A DNA stretch of 30,722 nt from Thermoplasmata archaeon (GTDB taxonomy: Archaea > Thermoplasmatota > Thermoplasmata > Lutacidiplasmatales > UBA184): the NCBI GenBank assembly GCA_030044695.1, contig JASIDM010000102.1, positions 1 through 30,722 on the forward strand, in the 5' to 3' direction. The notes under the pieces are model-generated. The model was not told the origin of the DNA and did not search any database. It saw only the letters and a list, made by a program, of their open reading frames with translations. Below, piece after piece: positions 26,673-30,722 of the stretch; position 1 is the stretch's first letter, and each line of letters starts with the position of its first letter. Made by a program: the position numbers and the translations under genes.

Positions 26673-27983
26673 CTACGGCGTCTCGGGGCCCGCCGAGCCC
26701 GCGACCCGCAGCTCGACGGCCGCGGCGGAACGAGGCGTCCGCGACGCGGTAGCCGCGCCCGAGTCGGTCGTATCGAGTGCGGGCCGCTCGAAGCGAGCCA
26801 CCGTGGCCAGGAGCGGTCGGAAGACGATCTCCGGCCGAACGACGGCGGCCAGGGCGAATCCTGCCGTCAGCACGTACTCGAGTCCCCAACGGGCCAGCAG
26901 CGCCGGACCCCCGACCGCTCCCACCGGGATCGCTCCCCAGGCGGTCGGGGCCCCGAGCGCGCCGAGGATCTCTCCGCCGAGGCTGTCGAGTCCCGCGGAC
27001 GCCAGCGGCGCGGGCCACCAGAGGAGCAGCGAGAGCGCCGCCCCCGCGATCACGACACCCCCGACCCGTCCCCACCCCCGGTGGAGCGCCACGGCGAACT
27101 GGCGCGCTCCCTCGGGGAAGAACGCGGCGGCGAGGGCGAAGCCGGCGACGACCTGATGCTCCACGATCCAGCGGAACCACCACCCCGCCCCCGCCGTTAG
27201 CGGGTCGTGGACGGTCCACTCGGCGAACATGGAGAGCGACCACAGCAGCCCCCCGACCGCGAGCGCGGCCCGGAGGGTGGCGCCCAGCGCCCAGCGACGG
27301 TCCGCCGGAGGGGCCACGACGCGGCCGCGCGAGCCCCGGTCCCCCCCCAGCCCGAGGAGGCCCCCGTAGACCGTGAGCAACAGCTCCTGGCCGAAGAGGG
27401 CGGCCCAGACGACCGCCACCTGCGCGACGCCGAGGTACCAGTTGTTGAGGAGGAGGCTCGAGGTCGACGAGCCCGAGGCCTGCGCGATCAGCCCGATCCC
27501 ACCGGTCGCGACCGCCGTCGTCGTGCAGCAGGAGCCGAGCGTCACGAGGCTGATCATGGCGGGGGTGAGTCCCGTGATCGCGCCGACGGCCTTCGAGCGA
27601 GCGACCTCCTGGGGCGTCGGTCGGAGCAGCCGCACGATCAGCAGGACGGCGACGGCCATCCCGAGGCCGACGCCGATCGCGACGGCGATCATGGCGAGCG
27701 TCGCGACGAACGGCAGCGCGACGATCCCCCACGGCGCGACGACGAGCAGCCCCGGATAGTTCCACCAGCCCTGGCCGGTGCCGCTGCCGGTGAGGATCTC
27801 GATCGACGTCCCGCCGCGCAGCGGCGCCAGCGTCAGCATCCCGCCGTACAGCATCGACCCGAGCGCGTACAGAACCGCGAGGAACGTGGCGAGGCCCAGC
27901 GCATGCGAGCGGCGGAGGAAGCTCCGTACCTCGCCGAAGTACAGGGCGCCGCGAAGGTCGATGCCGGCGGGGGACCCCGACAC
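26673..27983 (-). CDS. Hypothetical polytopic membrane protein with intramembrane GSCC motif
   Basis: About 10 hydrophobic segments; LVTLGSCCTTTAV. Confidence 0.72.
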   Translation of the reverse strand: MSGSPAGIDLRGALYFGEVRSFLRRSHALGLATFLAVLYALGSMLYGGMLTLAPLRGGTSIEILTGSGTGQGWWNYPGLLVVAPWGIVALPFVATLAMIAVAIGVGLGMAVAVLLIVRLLRPTPQEVARSKAVGAITGLTPAMISLVTLGSCCTTTAVATGGIGLIAQASGSSTSSLLLNNWYLGVAQVAVVWAALFGQELLLTVYGGLLGLGGDRGSRGRVVAPPADRRWALGATLRAALAVGGLLWSLSMFAEWTVHDPLTAGAGWWFRWIVEHQVVAGFALAAAFFPEGARQFAVALHRGWGRVGGVVIAGAALSLLLWWPAPLASAGLDSLGGEILGALGAPTAWGAIPVGAVGGPALLARWGLEYVLTAGFALAAVVRPEIVFRPLLATVARFERPALDTTDSGAATASRTPRSAAAVELRVAGSAGPETP

Positions 27984-28056
27984 GGCCGCCGGACCCAGGT
28001 CTTACTTAAGTTCCGTAGGTTCGGACGTCGGCGTGCCGGTGGCGGTGGGACCCACG

Positions 28057-28063
28057 TTTTAAG
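28057..28063 (+). promoter_or_regulatory. TATA box of tRNA-Ser
   Basis: TTTTAAG in a GC-rich context, 25 nt before the tRNA 5' end. Confidence 0.7.
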
Positions 28064-28088
28064 CCCGGGGCGGGGGTGGGGCCGCCAA

Positions 28089-28203
28089 GCGGGGATGGCC
28101 CAGCCCGGTAAGGCGCTGGATTGCTAATCCAGTGGTGATTTCACCTCGGGGGTTCAAAGGGAGGTCGGGTCCCCCCGACCTTCGGAACGTCCCCCTCCCC
28201 GCG
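28089..28203 (+). tRNA. tRNA-Ser(GCT) with 31-nt intron at 59/60 (28159-28189)
   Basis: GCGGGGA/TCCCCGC acceptor stem plus G73; CTGGA-TTGCTAA-TCCAG anticodon arm; long variable arm GGTG/CACC; GGGGG-TTCAAA[31 nt]T-CCCCC T arm. Confidence 0.9.
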
Positions 28204-28539
28204 TCCGTCTTCCTCCGGCGGCATCGGGTGGGCGCGGTAGATCGCTCCGTCGGCGACCACCTGGACCAGCGCGCCAACCCCGGGTAGCGGCGGGTCGGAG
28301 GCCACCAGCAGCCGGACCCCGTCCTCGACCTCCACGAGCGCGAGAAGGTGCGGGGAGGGCCACCCCGGCGGCGGGACCTCGAGCGCGGTGGCGGCGAGGA
28401 CCCGGCCGACACCGCGGGCGGCGTACGTCTCGGTGCCGGCGGAACCGCAGCGGGGACAGGGGCCGTCGATCGGCACGAACCGGGCGTGGCAACTGGGGCA
28501 CTTGCCGAGCTGCAGGGTGGGCGACGGGGCCGGGGTCAT
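28141..28539 (-). CDS. DUF35 zinc-ribbon/OB-fold thiolase partner protein
   Basis: CPSC-x10-CPRC, GVGRVLAAT, ALVEVEDGVRLL; ATGA overlap with the thiolase stop (ATG 28539). Confidence 0.85.
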   Translation of the reverse strand: MTPAPSPTLQLGKCPSCHARFVPIDGPCPRCGSAGTETYAARGVGRVLAATALEVPPPGWPSPHLLALVEVEDGVRLLVASDPPLPGVGALVQVVADGAIYRAHPMPPEEDGRGEGDVPKVGGTRPPFEPPR

Positions 28540-29669
28540 GGACCGCCTGTGCCGAGGATCGTCACGAAGTTCTGGACTCCCAGGCCGGCCATCGAGTGCG
28601 CGAGGCCGATCTTGGGACGCTTCGCGGTGGCGGTCGGCCCGGCCTCGCCCCGAAGCTGGAGCGCCACCTCCGCGATCCCGGCCAATCCCGATGCCCCGAC
28701 CGGGTGTCCACGGCCGAGGAGGCCTCCCCCCGGGTTCACGGGTAGGCGAGCGTCCGGGGCGACCCAGCCCTGAACGTACCACGACGACCCCTCCCCCGGT
28801 CCGCAGAAGCCGAGGTCCTCGAGATGGATGCACGCCAGCGGCGCGAACGCGTCGTGGAGCTCCACGACCTCGATGTGCTTGCGGGTCAACCGCCCCTCCT
28901 CGTACGCGCGCCGGGCCGCCAGCCGGGTCGCCACGAACCCGGTGAGGTCGTCTCGGTCGATCAGCCGGAGGGCGTCGAACGCCTGGCCGATGCCCAGCAC
29001 GGTCGCCGGACCCCGACCTCGCTCGATCACGACCGCGGCCGCCCCATCGGTGATCGGCGCGCAGTGCAGGAGGCGCAACGGAAGGGCGATCGGCCGGCTC
29101 GCCGCCACCTCGGCCTCCGTCACGGGCGTGCGGAGGTGGGCGTTCGGGTTCCGGGCGGCCTGCGCGCGGTCGTGGACCGTCACCGCCGCCAGGCGCTCCG
29201 GGGCGAGCCCGTGCCGGTCGAGGTACCGCTGGGCGACCAGCGCGCCGAGCCCGGGCATCGTCGCCCCGGCGGCGGCCTCGCTCTCGTGCAGGGCGGCCGC
29301 GAGCTCCCCCGTCAGCTCGGCCGTCGGGCGATCGGTCATCTTCTCCGCCGCGACGACGAGGGCCCGCTCGTAGCGACCCGACGCGACCGCGAGCGCCGCC
29401 ACGTGGAACGTCATCCCCCCGGTCCCGCTCGCCGACTCCGCGCGATAGCCGGACGCGGACTCGAGCCCCAGGCGACCGGCGAGACGCGGCAGCAGCGCCT
29501 CGGGCCCGTGGGGACCGTGGGACATCATCGAGCCCACGACCAAGAGGTCGATCGGCTTGCGGCCGACCCCGTCGAGGGCAAGGACAGCGGCCTCGGCCGC
29601 CAGGTCGACCAGCGTCTCGCTGCGCTTGCCGTAGCGCCCGGTCCCGACCGCGGCGATGTGGACGCTCAT
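28536..29669 (-). CDS. Thiolase-family protein (SCP2/archaeal type)
   Basis: AAEKM, CAPITDGAAAVV, ELHDAF, VNPGGGLLGRGHPVGASG. ATG 29669 overlaps the hjc stop; real gene lies within the longer track ORF. Confidence 0.9.
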   Translation of the reverse strand: MSVHIAAVGTGRYGKRSETLVDLAAEAAVLALDGVGRKPIDLLVVGSMMSHGPHGPEALLPRLAGRLGLESASGYRAESASGTGGMTFHVAALAVASGRYERALVVAAEKMTDRPTAELTGELAAALHESEAAAGATMPGLGALVAQRYLDRHGLAPERLAAVTVHDRAQAARNPNAHLRTPVTEAEVAASRPIALPLRLLHCAPITDGAAAVVIERGRGPATVLGIGQAFDALRLIDRDDLTGFVATRLAARRAYEEGRLTRKHIEVVELHDAFAPLACIHLEDLGFCGPGEGSSWYVQGWVAPDARLPVNPGGGLLGRGHPVGASGLAGIAEVALQLRGEAGPTATAKRPKIGLAHSMAGLGVQNFVTILGTGGP

Positions 29670-30220
29670 GTCGCCCCCCGGGCCGCCGGCTCCGCGATGC
29701 TCCGCACCGTCAGGAGGAACCGCGAGAGCGGCATCCCCTCCTCCCACCGCAGGATGCCGTGGCCCTCGCGCGTCGTGCTGACCGACGGCAGACGCCGGCA
29801 GATGTAGCGGAGCGAACCGGCGGTCGGCACGTCGCTGCCGAGGTAGATGCGCCACGGCTCCTCGGTGCGGCGACCGAGACGGCGGTACGCGTAGAGGACC
29901 GTCAGCCCGACGCGGTGCACGGCGCGTCGGTGCGCCGCGAGCTGCTGGTCGGCGCGCCCGCTCGCGTCGGCGAACCGGATCACGTCGCCCGAGGTCGCCT
30001 TCACCTCGAGCGGGAACGCGAGCTCGCGGCGGAGCGCGACCAGGTCGAAGCCGAGCGAGCCGGCGCCCCGTACCACGAGGAAGGGCTCGTGGACGATCCG
30101 CTCGAACGCGGCGCGCTCCTCCGGCACGAGGATGCGCAGGTAGGAGCGGACCGCGGATTCGTCCCCCTCGAGCAGGGTCCTGAGCTCGCGCTCGTACGCC
30201 GACGAGCCCCGACCGACCAC
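29666..30220 (-). CDS. hjc: Holliday junction resolvase-like PD-(D/E)xK nuclease
   Basis: SAYERELR, VRGAGSLGFDLVAL, PLEVK. GTG 30220 fits TATA spacing better than the track's ATG 30244. Confidence 0.75.
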   Translation of the reverse strand: MVGRGSSAYERELRTLLEGDESAVRSYLRILVPEERAAFERIVHEPFLVVRGAGSLGFDLVALRRELAFPLEVKATSGDVIRFADASGRADQQLAAHRRAVHRVGLTVLYAYRRLGRRTEEPWRIYLGSDVPTAGSLRYICRRLPSVSTTREGHGILRWEEGMPLSRFLLTVRSIAEPAARGAT

Positions 30221-30242
30221 GGGTTCGCACTCTCGAGGGCCC

Positions 30243-30252
30243 ATTAATATAA
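30243..30252. promoter_or_regulatory. Shared bidirectional TATA element
   Basis: ATTAATATAA lies 22 nt from GTG 30220 (-) and 24 nt from GTG 30277 (+). Confidence 0.6.
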
Positions 30253-30276
30253 GACGGTCGGACGGTAGCGAGCCCC

Positions 30277-30722
30277 GTGGCCGCGGCCGGTTCCCTCGAG
30301 CTGGTCGAGCCGGATGTCGCGGTCGCGCGCGTGCTGATCGGGGTCGTCGCGGACGCGGACCGACGCCGCACAGTGCGCGGCGTGGCGTCGCAGCCGGCCC
30401 GCTTTCGCCTCACGGAACTGCGGGCGCGGCTCCTGCGCGAGCGCGTCTTCGAGGACACCAACCGGCTCCTGACCCGGCTCAAGCGCCGGGGACTGCTGGT
30501 CGAGCTCCCCGAGGGCCACGGGGACAAGCTCTTCCAGGTGCCGTACCCGCTCGAGCTCCGACAGTTGCTCCTCGACGAGGTCGGCCGGTCCGAGACGGTC
30601 GAGCCGTCCGCGCTGCAGCCGGTCCCGGACGAACCCGCCGAGATCCGGGGAATGGACTCGCAGTTCCTCGACCTGCTGAAGGAGATCGTCCGCAGCCGGC
30701 TCGACGCGACGGTCGAGTTCGG
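30277..30722 (+). CDS. Hypothetical protein, 3'-truncated by the window edge
   Basis: Not in the track. Open from GTG 30277 to the end (MAAAGSLELVEPDV...DSQFLDLLKEIVRSRLDATVEF) with host-like codon usage. Confidence 0.65.
   Translation, partial: MAAAGSLELVEPDVAVARVLIGVVADADRRRTVRGVASQPARFRLTELRARLLRERVFEDTNRLLTRLKRRGLLVELPEGHGDKLFQVPYPLELRQLLLDEVGRSETVEPSALQPVPDEPAEIRGMDSQFLDLLKEIVRSRLDATVEF

What the first reader, a model, noticed from the sequence alone, without database searches (positions are those of the whole stretch)
28153..28195. Non-canonical T-loop (59/60) intron in tRNA-Ser(GCT) with relaxed BHB
The 31-nt insert parses as G | GGAGGTCGGG-TCCC-CCCGACCTTC | GGAA | CG. This gives a 10-bp intron helix, a central helix of T54-T55-C56-A57 with GGAA (3 pairs plus an A.G mismatch), and 3-nt bulges A58-A59/G and C-G/T60, closed by G53-C61. 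Cutting after the second base of each bulge restores TTCAAAT. Non-canonical introns are established mainly in lineages with broad-specificity (alpha-beta)2 or epsilon2 splicing endonucleases, so one in a probable Thermoplasmata genome implies an unusual EndA or a recent intron gain. Standard scans could miss this tRNA.
Basis: partly seen in the sequence, partly recalled or inferred. Interest (0 to 1): 0.75.

Follow-up and report, generated by a model that had tools for sequence, protein, structure and literature searches.

The report
T-loop intron in serine tRNA gene
This is a real serine tRNA gene interrupted in its T-loop by a 31-base intron shaped for the ordinary archaeal splicing enzyme. 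It is one of about nine such genes in this peat-soil archaeon, an unusually high load for its group (Thermoplasmata).

Summary
Window 28089-28203 (+) is a tRNA-Ser(GCT) gene. Deleting 28159-28189 (31 nt, between A59 and T60) gives a perfect 84-nt class II tRNA. ARAGORN and Rfam at its gathering score both miss the unspliced gene.

The insert folds as a near-canonical bulge-helix-bulge (BHB) motif:
- T-stem of 5 bp
- two 3-nt bulges
- central helix T54-A57 against GGAA (3 pairs plus A.G)
- 10-bp intron helix

The gene is single-copy and carries the intron in 56/56 sampled species of the genus. The exons are almost invariant. Nine of the 10 intron-helix pairs show compensatory changes.

It is not an isolated oddity. 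Nine tRNA genes in this bin have an intron at the same 59/60 site, and a 100%-complete congener has 14 among about 43 tRNA loci. About half of 151 sampled genomes of the class have at least one.

The splicing endonuclease (EndA) is the ordinary two-unit alpha'2 type, with no specificity-loop insertion. So "unusual EndA or recent gain" is not supported. The motif is strict enough for a standard enzyme, and the intron is old. Splicing itself is inferred, because no spliced RNA was seen.

The intron is a new member of a known kind. Strict and relaxed 59/60 introns are published for ARMAN-2. Earlier notes of this scan report the same phenomenon on other Thermoplasmata DNA.

The parts
28057..28062 (+). 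A/T-rich TTTTAA box about 30 nt upstream of the tRNA 5' end; likely archaeal TATA-type promoter element
   Evidence: Read directly from the sequence, in DNA that is about 70% G+C. Similar TTTAAG or A/T boxes sit at the same distance upstream of the other interrupted tRNA genes and of the G061 orthologue. Promoter function is inferred.
28089..28158 (+). Exon 1 of tRNA-Ser(GCT): acceptor 5' strand, D-arm, anticodon arm (anticodon GCT at 28123-28125), long variable arm, T-stem 5' strand (28148-28152), T54-A59
   Evidence: ARAGORN cloverleaf of the spliced sequence. Exon 1 is 84-94% identical across the pre-tRNA in congeners and nearly invariant.
28153..28156 (+). 5' strand of the central BHB helix H (T54 T55 C56 A57)
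   Evidence: Pairs with 28184-28187 (GGAA): T-A, T-A, C-G, A.G. In 28 species, positions 54 and 55 always face A or G, C56 always faces G, and A57 faces G in 27 of 28 and T in one.
28157..28159 (+). 5' bulge (A58 A59 G); predicted cut between 28158 and 28159
   Evidence: Geometry of the motif. A cut after the second bulge base restores TTCAAAT, the T-loop of intron-less orthologues in sister families.
28159..28189 (+). 31-nt intron
   Evidence: Its deletion restores the tRNA. Length is 30-32 nt in 31 orthologues.
28160..28183 (+). Intron hairpin h': arms 28160-28169 and 28174-28183 (10 bp, one G.U), loop TCCC 28170-28173
   Evidence: Minimum-free-energy fold. Nine of 10 pairs show compensatory double changes across species.
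28184..28187 (+). 3' strand of helix H (GGAA)
28188..28190 (+). 3' bulge (C G T60); predicted cut between 28189 and 28190
   Evidence: The two intron bases vary freely between species, while T60 is invariant.
28190..28203 (+). Exon 2: T60, T-stem 3' strand (28191-28195), acceptor 3' strand (28196-28202), discriminator G (28203); CCA not encoded
   Evidence: Invariant in 28 species.

Best explanation
Window 28089-28203 encodes the serine tRNA that reads AGY codons, in a GC-rich peat/soil Thermoplasmata (a UBA184-like lineage). The gene is transcribed as a 115-nt precursor.

In the precursor, the universal T-loop bases T54-T55-C56-A57 pair with GGAA near the 3' end of a 31-nt insert. The rest of the insert forms a 10-bp hairpin. 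The T-stem closes the other side. Together these make a bulge-helix-bulge motif with two 3-nt bulges, four positions apart, on opposite strands.

The cell's homodimeric alpha'2 splicing endonuclease (EndA) cuts after the second base of each bulge, that is after A59 and before T60. The RtcB ligase then joins the exons. This restores the T-loop TTCAAAT and a normal 84-nt tRNA.

Shown here: the gene, the motif, its conservation and covariation, the absence of any intron-less copy, the enzyme type, and the genome-wide and class-wide recurrence of the same layout. Inferred: transcription, cleavage at those bonds by EndA, and ligation.

The central helix uses bases common to all tRNAs, and the outer helix is the T-stem itself. 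An intron ending in YGRR-NN can therefore work at 59/60 of any tRNA, which plausibly explains why this site is hit so often in this lineage.
For: - Splicing in silico gives a perfect tRNA-Ser(gct).
- The motif has a 5-bp T-stem, 3-nt bulges, a central helix of 3 pairs plus A.G, and a 10-bp intron helix.
- Across 28 species, 9 of 10 intron-helix pairs have changes on both sides. Paired cells are 88.7% against 46-71% when partners are slid, and 0 of 500 shuffles reach the covariation score.
- The exons are invariant while intron bases outside the helices vary.
- The gene is single-copy, and its whole-length match includes the intron in 56/56 genus genomes. A match is found in 74/74 family genomes. 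No intron-less Ser(GCT) is found.
- Nine tRNA genes of the bin have the same layout. Five of them have a perfect 4-bp central helix, and for two the BHB is the minimum-free-energy fold.
- Model R2 finds all nine at 33-60 bits, with noise at 19 bits or less.
- R2 finds 5-14 hits per genome in 15/15 family genomes, and at least one hit in 73/151 genomes of the class. Thirty hits inspected in five genomes are all T-arm BHB introns followed by an acceptor strand.
- EndA is present with the Tyr/His/Lys catalytic motifs in its second unit.
- RtcB is present in 5/5 near-complete congeners.
- Alpha4 and alpha2 enzymes are reported to require only a strict 3-4-3 hBHBh' motif (PMC3239211).
Against: - No spliced RNA was seen. 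The four RNA libraries that hold this tRNA contain only unspliced contigs of relatives with genomic flanks, which may be DNA carry-over or precursor.
- The central helix has an A57.G mismatch next to the 5' bulge, so the motif is not textbook-strict. The BHB fold is 2.9 kcal/mol above the minimum-free-energy fold.
- Wild-type A. fulgidus alpha'2 EndA barely cut a relaxed T-loop intron in vitro (PMC3488258), so tolerance of the mismatch by this lineage's enzyme is assumed.
- RtcB was not found in this 72%-complete bin.
- The bin holds two divergent copies of this locus, so the window and the EndA contig may come from two congeners.
Confidence: 0.9

Rival explanations
1. The motif is cut by EndA, but only because the enzyme of this lineage has widened its specificity. 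This would have happened through point substitutions or a partner protein rather than a recognisable loop insertion, letting it accept the A57.G mismatch and, in sister families, hairpin-loop mini-introns.
For: - All A57 tRNAs of the family put G, not U, opposite A57: 4/4 in this bin and 8/8 in G061.
- A sister family carries 11-13-nt Ser(GCT) introns with no intron helix. These are the hBH type that needed a broad-specificity enzyme in ARMAN-2.
- The catalytic unit has arginines in the loop that matches A. fulgidus K175 (YGSRVGGR).
Against: - There is no insertion at the specificity-loop site and no family-specific indel within the class.
- Five of the nine introns here are perfectly strict.
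- Low-GC relatives with the same enzyme type pair A57 with U. This suggests base-composition drift tolerated by the enzyme rather than a new requirement.
Confidence: 0.15
2. The insert is not removed by EndA. Either it stays in the mature RNA as an expanded T-loop, or it is removed by some other route.
For: No spliced read was observed.
Against: - The T-loop sequence and length are needed for the tRNA elbow.
- The insert is selected for exactly the 3-4-3 BHB geometry in many different tRNAs and families. A retained extension has no reason to keep that geometry.
- The bulge bases inside the intron vary freely.
Confidence: 0.04
3. It is a disrupted tRNA pseudogene, or a relic of a mobile-element insertion.
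For: Generic tRNA finders reject it.
Against: - It is the only Ser(GCT) gene in every congener.
- The exons are invariant and the insert covaries.
- An A/T promoter box is kept upstream.
- 31 nt with no repeats or coding capacity is not a mobile element.
Confidence: 0.01

Closest known systems
59/60 introns of ARMAN-2 (Ca. [quoted passage not shown] 2011, PMC3239211; Hirata et al. 2012, PMC3488258)
   Same: Same insertion site in the T-loop and the same use of the T-stem as the outer helix. The strict form has both bulges and both flanking helices, as here. The 11-13-nt Ser(GCT) mini-introns of the sister family resemble the Cys intron.
   Different: ARMAN-2 has a three-unit epsilon2 EndA with a specificity loop, and cleavage was shown in vitro. 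This lineage has a plain two-unit alpha'2 EndA with no such loop, and nothing has been shown biochemically.
Non-canonical and multiple BHB introns of Thermoproteales, other Crenarchaeota and Thaumarchaeota (tRNAscan-SE 2.0 census, PMC8450103 Table S7)
   Same: Protein-spliced BHB introns outside 37/38. The load per genome is high: 0.84 introns per gene in Thermoproteales, compared with about one third of genes interrupted at 59/60 alone here.
   Different: Those lineages have (alpha-beta)2 EndA with a Crenarchaea-specific loop, many relaxed motifs and many insertion sites. Here the dominant site is a single one (59/60), and the motifs are strict or nearly so.
Published baseline for Thermoplasmata (PMC8450103 Table S7)
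   Same: Same class. A few non-canonical introns are already predicted: 6 in 138 tRNA genes of 3 Methanomassiliicoccales, and 1 in 231 genes of 5 Thermoplasmatales.
   Different: This family carries 5-14 T-loop introns per genome, roughly ten times that density. I found no paper describing it.
Canonical 37/38 archaeal tRNA intron
   Same: The architecture is identical if shifted by 22 positions. T-stem pair 53:61 plays the role of 31:39, T54-A57 that of 32-35, A58-A59 that of 36-37, and T60 that of 38.
   Different: The central helix is built from universal T-loop bases instead of the anticodon. The same intron design therefore fits any tRNA.

Membership tests
Archaeal EndA-spliced (BHB) tRNA intron | Removing the insert restores a complete cloverleaf tRNA | tested here: met
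   84-nt tRNA-Ser(gct) after deleting 28159-28189. The junction gives the TTCAAAT loop of intron-less orthologues.
Archaeal EndA-spliced (BHB) tRNA intron | [quoted passage not shown] | tested here: met
   5-bp T-stem, 3-nt bulges and 10-bp intron helix. The central helix has 3 standard pairs plus A57.G. The same layout has 4 perfect pairs in five other tRNAs of the bin.
Archaeal EndA-spliced (BHB) tRNA intron | Structure, not sequence, of the intron is conserved | tested here: met
   Nine of 10 intron-helix pairs have compensatory double changes in 28 species, and 0/500 shuffles reach the score.
Archaeal EndA-spliced (BHB) tRNA intron | The genome encodes the splicing endonuclease and the RtcB ligase | tested here: met
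   EndA is on contig C102, with two N+C units and the catalytic residues. RtcB is missing from this 72%-complete bin but present in 5/5 near-complete congeners.
Archaeal EndA-spliced (BHB) tRNA intron | Spliced product or excised intron observed | tested here: inconclusive
   RNA-library contigs hold only unspliced relatives. No joint was seen, and contigs cannot show absence.
Relaxed (HBh', hBH/BHL) non-canonical introns that depend on a broad-specificity EndA | One bulge or one flanking helix is missing | tested here: not met
   Both bulges and both flanking helices are present.
Relaxed (HBh', hBH/BHL) non-canonical introns that depend on a broad-specificity EndA | The host has (alpha-beta)2 or epsilon2 EndA with a CSL/ASL-type loop | tested here: not met
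   There is one ORF with two PF01974 units in 58 of 61 class genomes, and no second gene. The alignment to A. fulgidus EndA is gapless across its K175 loop. No family-specific insertion was found.
tRNA pseudogene | Sequence decay, and/or an intact paralogue that takes over the function | tested here: not met
   The exons are invariant, and there is one copy per genome in 56/56 congeners, always with the intron. The second copy in this bin (C151) also has the intron and lies on a 72%-identical syntenic contig.

The most novel reading that the evidence does not exclude
A whole family of GC-rich soil and peat Thermoplasmata has about a third of its tRNA genes interrupted at the single site 59/60 by strict or near-strict BHB introns. 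It processes them with a plain alpha'2 endonuclease that has no specificity loop. If so, large-scale spread of tRNA introns to a non-canonical site does not need a broad-specificity enzyme, contrary to the usual co-evolution account. It needs only a site where universal tRNA bases (T54-R57 plus the T-stem) can supply half of a strict motif. The constant G opposite A57 would then show that this enzyme type tolerates a purine-purine pair next to the 5' bulge.
Probability: 0.55. Interest if true: 0.65.

Novelty: new member of a known kind. Interest (0 to 1): 0.52.

Why it matters
- **Annotation.** This is the only tRNA for AGY serine codons in the lineage, and generic finders miss it. They also miss most of the other T-loop-interrupted tRNAs: in a complete congener, 11 of the 14 such genes score below Rfam's threshold or are not hit at all. 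Genomes of this group will therefore look as if they lack many tRNAs, and completeness or codon-usage inferences will be skewed.
- **Biology.** The textbook link between "non-canonical introns" and broad-specificity endonucleases is really a link with relaxed motifs. This lineage is a natural test case showing that a strict motif at another site can spread widely under a standard alpha'2 enzyme. It offers simple substrates for testing how much mismatch that enzyme tolerates.

Tried and rejected
- **Direct evidence of splicing.** Two run searches and one read-laying run on four RNA libraries gave only unspliced contigs of relatives with flanking DNA, and no joint. This is inconclusive and does not argue against splicing.
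- **ARAGORN 'tRNA-Ser(gct)' on contig C79.** Rejected as a false positive. It is 77 nt, sits in coding-like sequence, and has no Infernal hit even at E<=10. ARAGORN with -i gives dozens of spurious long-intron calls in this 72.6% G+C genome.
- **First structure model R1 (Ser genes only).** It found only the A57-type introns. It was rebuilt as R2 from a model-guided alignment of all nine.
- **MAFFT alignment of different tRNAs' T-arms (A2).** It mis-registered the 3' ends and was not used.
- **Deletion scanning with ARAGORN to map the D-arm inserts of Arg(GCG) and Lys(TTT).** ARAGORN accepts too many variants, so exact boundaries were not determined.
- **Alternative registers for the central helix and other splice positions (58/59, 60/61).** Considered by hand and rejected. 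They give 6- or 8-nt T-loops, or need bases that are not conserved.
- **Sequence similarity between introns of different tRNAs.** Beyond the YGRR end, which is forced by pairing, similarity was not tested statistically. I make no claim about copying between genes.

Full report
**What is there.**
- The + strand from 28089 to 28203 reads as a class II tRNA, up to TTCAAA at 28153-28158.
- A 31-nt insert follows (28159-28189), and the tRNA resumes with T CCCCC TCCCCGC G.
- Deleting the insert gives an 84-nt tRNA-Ser(gct) with a flawless cloverleaf.
- ARAGORN finds only tRNA-Thr(TGT) in the window, and so does Rfam at gathering score. With permissive settings Infernal gives the Ser locus 26.8 bits, below the 29-bit cut-off.

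**Anatomy.**
- The T-stem (28148-28152 with 28191-28195) is the outer helix.
- T54 T55 C56 A57 (28153-28156) face GGAA (28184-28187): T-A, T-A, C-G, A.G.
- A58 A59 plus the first intron base form a 3-nt bulge. The last two intron bases plus T60 form the opposite 3-nt bulge.
- Bases 28160-28169 and 28174-28183 form a 10-bp hairpin with loop TCCC.
- This is the hBHBh' layout of archaeal splice sites. It is the exact T-arm counterpart of a 37/38 intron: 53:61 stands for 31:39, 54-57 for 32-35, 58-59 for 36-37, and 60 for 38.
- Cutting after the second base of each bulge gives TTCAAAT. That is the T-loop of intron-less Ser(GCT) genes in sister families.
- The nearest-neighbour energy model leaves the 3-bp central helix open. 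The BHB fold is 2.9 kcal/mol above the minimum-free-energy fold.

**Is it selected?**
- A search of 60 relatives found a whole-length match, intron included, in 33 of 36 congeners. The three without a match are 59-83% complete.
- A wider draw found one copy in each of 74/74 genomes of the family. In 56/56 genomes of the genus it aligned over the whole precursor.
- In 31 orthologues the intron is 30-32 nt long.
- In an alignment of 28 species, the exons, T60 and the G opposite C56 never change, and the two bulge bases inside the intron vary freely.
- Nine of the 10 hairpin pairs change on both sides while staying paired. 88.7% of cells are paired, against 46-71% when partners are slid by 1-3 columns. 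None of 500 shuffles reaches the covariation score.
- T54 and T55 always face A or G. A57 faces G in 27 species and T in one.
- No intron-less Ser(GCT) gene exists in any of these genomes, so the interrupted gene must supply the AGY-reading tRNA.
- This rules out a pseudogene and argues strongly for removal of the insert.

**It is one of many.**
- Weak or truncated Infernal hits in the genome turned out to be tRNA genes with an insert at the same place.
- The set is: Asn(GTT), Arg(TCT), Arg(TCG), Lys(TTT), Asp(GTC), His(GTG), a Gly(TCC)-like tRNA, and a second Ser(GCT).
- All nine share the T-stem / 3-nt bulge / 4-position helix / 3-nt bulge / 7-10-bp hairpin layout, with introns of 26-38 nt.
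- Of the five tRNAs with G57, four have a perfect 4-bp central helix (C opposite G57); the fifth, Asn, keeps G57-C but has a C.C mismatch at C56.
- The four with A57 have G opposite it.
- For Asp and Arg(TCG), the BHB is the minimum-free-energy fold.
- A covariance model of T-arm plus intron (R2) recovers all nine at 33-60 bits, and the best other hit in the genome scores 19 bits.
- Among the 30 tRNA loci seen in this 72%-complete bin:
  - 9 carry a 59/60 intron;
  - 2 carry D-arm inserts (one of them also has a 59/60 intron);
  - 2 carry anticodon-loop introns.

**Distribution.**
- R2 on 151 genomes of the class found 9-14 hits per genome in the genus and 5-10 in other genera of the family (15/15 genomes). 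It found 0-5 elsewhere, and 73/151 genomes have at least one.
- I inspected 30 hits from five genomes of five families. Every one is T-stem + TTCRAA + BHB insert + T + T-stem + acceptor strand.
- A 100%-complete congener (G061) has 14 such introns. Infernal sees 27 full-length tRNAs there, plus 13 weak hits, most of which are the interrupted genes. That is 14 of about 43 loci.
- Low-GC relatives pair A57 with T. The GC-rich families put G there.
- Ser(CGA) is interrupted in G061 but intact in this bin, so gains or losses continue within the genus.
- For Ser(GCT) itself:
  - a sister family of the same order has 11- and 13-nt inserts at 59/60 with a perfect TGAA:TTCA helix but no intron hairpin;
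  - another family has a 37-nt insert at the same site;
  - another has an insert on the 5' side of the anticodon arm;
  - two have 37/38-type introns, and many have none.

**Organism and enzymes.**
- EndA relatives at 69-85% identity are all named 'Thermoplasmata archaeon'. They are soil, peat and wetland MAGs, including UBA184.
- A 2022 paper on the Terrestrial Miscellaneous Euryarchaeota Group (Lutacidiplasmatales) mentions UBA184 (PMC9287336, found). I did not read it, so the order-level name is a guess.
- DNA runs holding the window are peat metagenomes.
- The bin has one EndA ORF with two tandem units, each an N domain plus a catalytic-type C domain. Its N-terminus is cut by the contig end, and a congener's gene is about 346 aa.
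- The same single two-unit ORF is found in 58 of 61 genomes of the class, with no second subunit gene. This is the alpha'2 architecture known from Thermoplasma and Archaeoglobus.
- The best solved relatives are the M. kandleri fusion (5x89) and A. fulgidus EndA (1r0v, 2gjw).
- Hirata et al. grafted the ARMAN-2 specificity loop at A. fulgidus Lys175 and so widened its specificity (PMC3488258). In the alignment, that loop (YGSEKGD) matches YGSRVGG here without a gap.
- An alignment with EndAs of four other families of the class shows no insertion special to the intron-rich family. The Tyr, His and Lys catalytic motifs are present in unit 2.
- RtcB is missing from the bin but present in all five near-complete congeners tested.

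**Comparison with the literature.**
- Fujishima et al. state that alpha4 and alpha2 enzymes need a strict 3-4-3 hBHBh' motif, while (alpha-beta)2 and epsilon2 enzymes also cut relaxed motifs. They describe 59/60 introns in ARMAN-2: strict in Pro(GGG), and a 13-nt hBH in Cys(GCA) (PMC3239211).
- Kaneta et al. repeat that only the loop-bearing types remove relaxed introns (PMC5829648).
- The tRNAscan-SE 2.0 census lists 25 non-canonical introns in 6,970 euryarchaeal tRNA genes. These include 6 in three Methanomassiliicoccales and 1 in five Thermoplasmatales (PMC8450103 Table S7).
- So a 59/60 BHB intron is a known kind of object, and a few non-canonical introns are already predicted in Thermoplasmata.
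- I could not find in the searchable literature the density seen in this family, or the fact that it coexists with a plain alpha'2 enzyme.
- Earlier notes of this scan report the same pattern on other Thermoplasmata genomes. They are unchecked AI notes. My counts and enzyme analysis were made independently and agree with them.

**Verdict on the interpretation.**
- The structural reading is right.
- "Recent gain" is contradicted by genus- and family-wide conservation.
- "Unusual EndA" is contradicted by architecture and alignment.
- The motif is near-strict, so a standard enzyme is expected to cut it. The constant A57.G mismatch is the one feature that might need extra tolerance, and I keep that as a 15% rival.

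**Limits.**
- Splicing is inferred, not observed.
- The bin contains a second contig (C151) that is syntenic with window 27727-30722 at 72% identity. Two congeners are therefore mixed at this locus, and the EndA contig need not come from the same cell line as the window. All congeners share both features, so the conclusion does not depend on this.
- tRNAscan-SE 2.0 was not available, so "missed by standard scans" holds only for ARAGORN and Rfam/Infernal.

Noticed in passing
G000 contigs: C99:14526-14640 (+), C118:5700-5817 (-), C178:1562-1717 (+), C147:1280-1378 (-), C119:14409-14525 (+), C66:8586-8690 (+), C92:6715-6829 (-), C151:362-476 (+): Eight further tRNA genes of the same bin carry a 26-38-nt BHB intron at 59/60: Asn GTT, Arg TCT, Lys TTT, Gly TCC-like, Asp GTC, Arg TCG, His GTG and a second Ser GCT. 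The Asn intron keeps a C.C mismatch at C56 in two species.
   Followed up: yes
G000:C37:21190-21301 (-) and G000:C178:1562-1620 (+): tRNA-Arg(GCG) and tRNA-Lys(TTT) have inserts of about 30-37 nt inside the D-arm. The Lys gene therefore has two non-canonical introns. Exact boundaries were not determined.
   Followed up: partly
window 27727-30722 versus G000:C151:1-2988: Contig C151 (3.6 kb, 73% G+C) is syntenic with the end of the window at 72% nucleotide identity, and it carries its own intron-bearing Ser(GCT). All 56 congeners have one copy. The bin probably mixes two related populations at this locus.
   Followed up: partly
L035 (G038) and L036 (G040), sister family of the same order: Here tRNA-Ser(GCT) has only 13- and 11-nt inserts at 59/60 (A ATTTTT TGAA AA and A ATTT TGAA AA). 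The 4-bp central helix is perfect but there is no intron hairpin, so this is a bulge-helix-loop motif like the ARMAN-2 Cys intron. These genomes also have a two-unit alpha'2 EndA.
   Followed up: partly
L051, L052, L053 (G042, G037, G039; another family of the order): Here tRNA-Ser(GCT) has no T-loop intron. Instead it has an insert of about 40 nt on the 5' side of the anticodon arm, bounded by a CGGATT direct repeat. A fourth genome of that genus (G041) has no intron at all.
   Followed up: no
G000:C147:1280-1378 (-) and L163 (G061): The tRNA that ARAGORN calls Gly(TCC) has the anticodon loop CCTCCAA, which puts C rather than the near-universal U at position 33. This is conserved in two species.
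   Followed up: no
T-loop introns of GC-rich families (f1, f27) versus low-GC families: When position 57 is A, the GC-rich lineages always place G opposite it (12/12 in two f1 genomes, 3/3 in G142). Low-GC relatives place T there (5/5). When 57 is G, the partner is always C.
   Followed up: partly
RNA runs X15, X16, X18 laid on window 28040-28250: Metatranscriptome assemblies from rhizosphere, root and peat contain contigs of relatives' Ser(GCT) genes. These still hold divergent, compensated introns and genomic flanks. They may be precursor RNA or DNA carry-over.
   Followed up: partly
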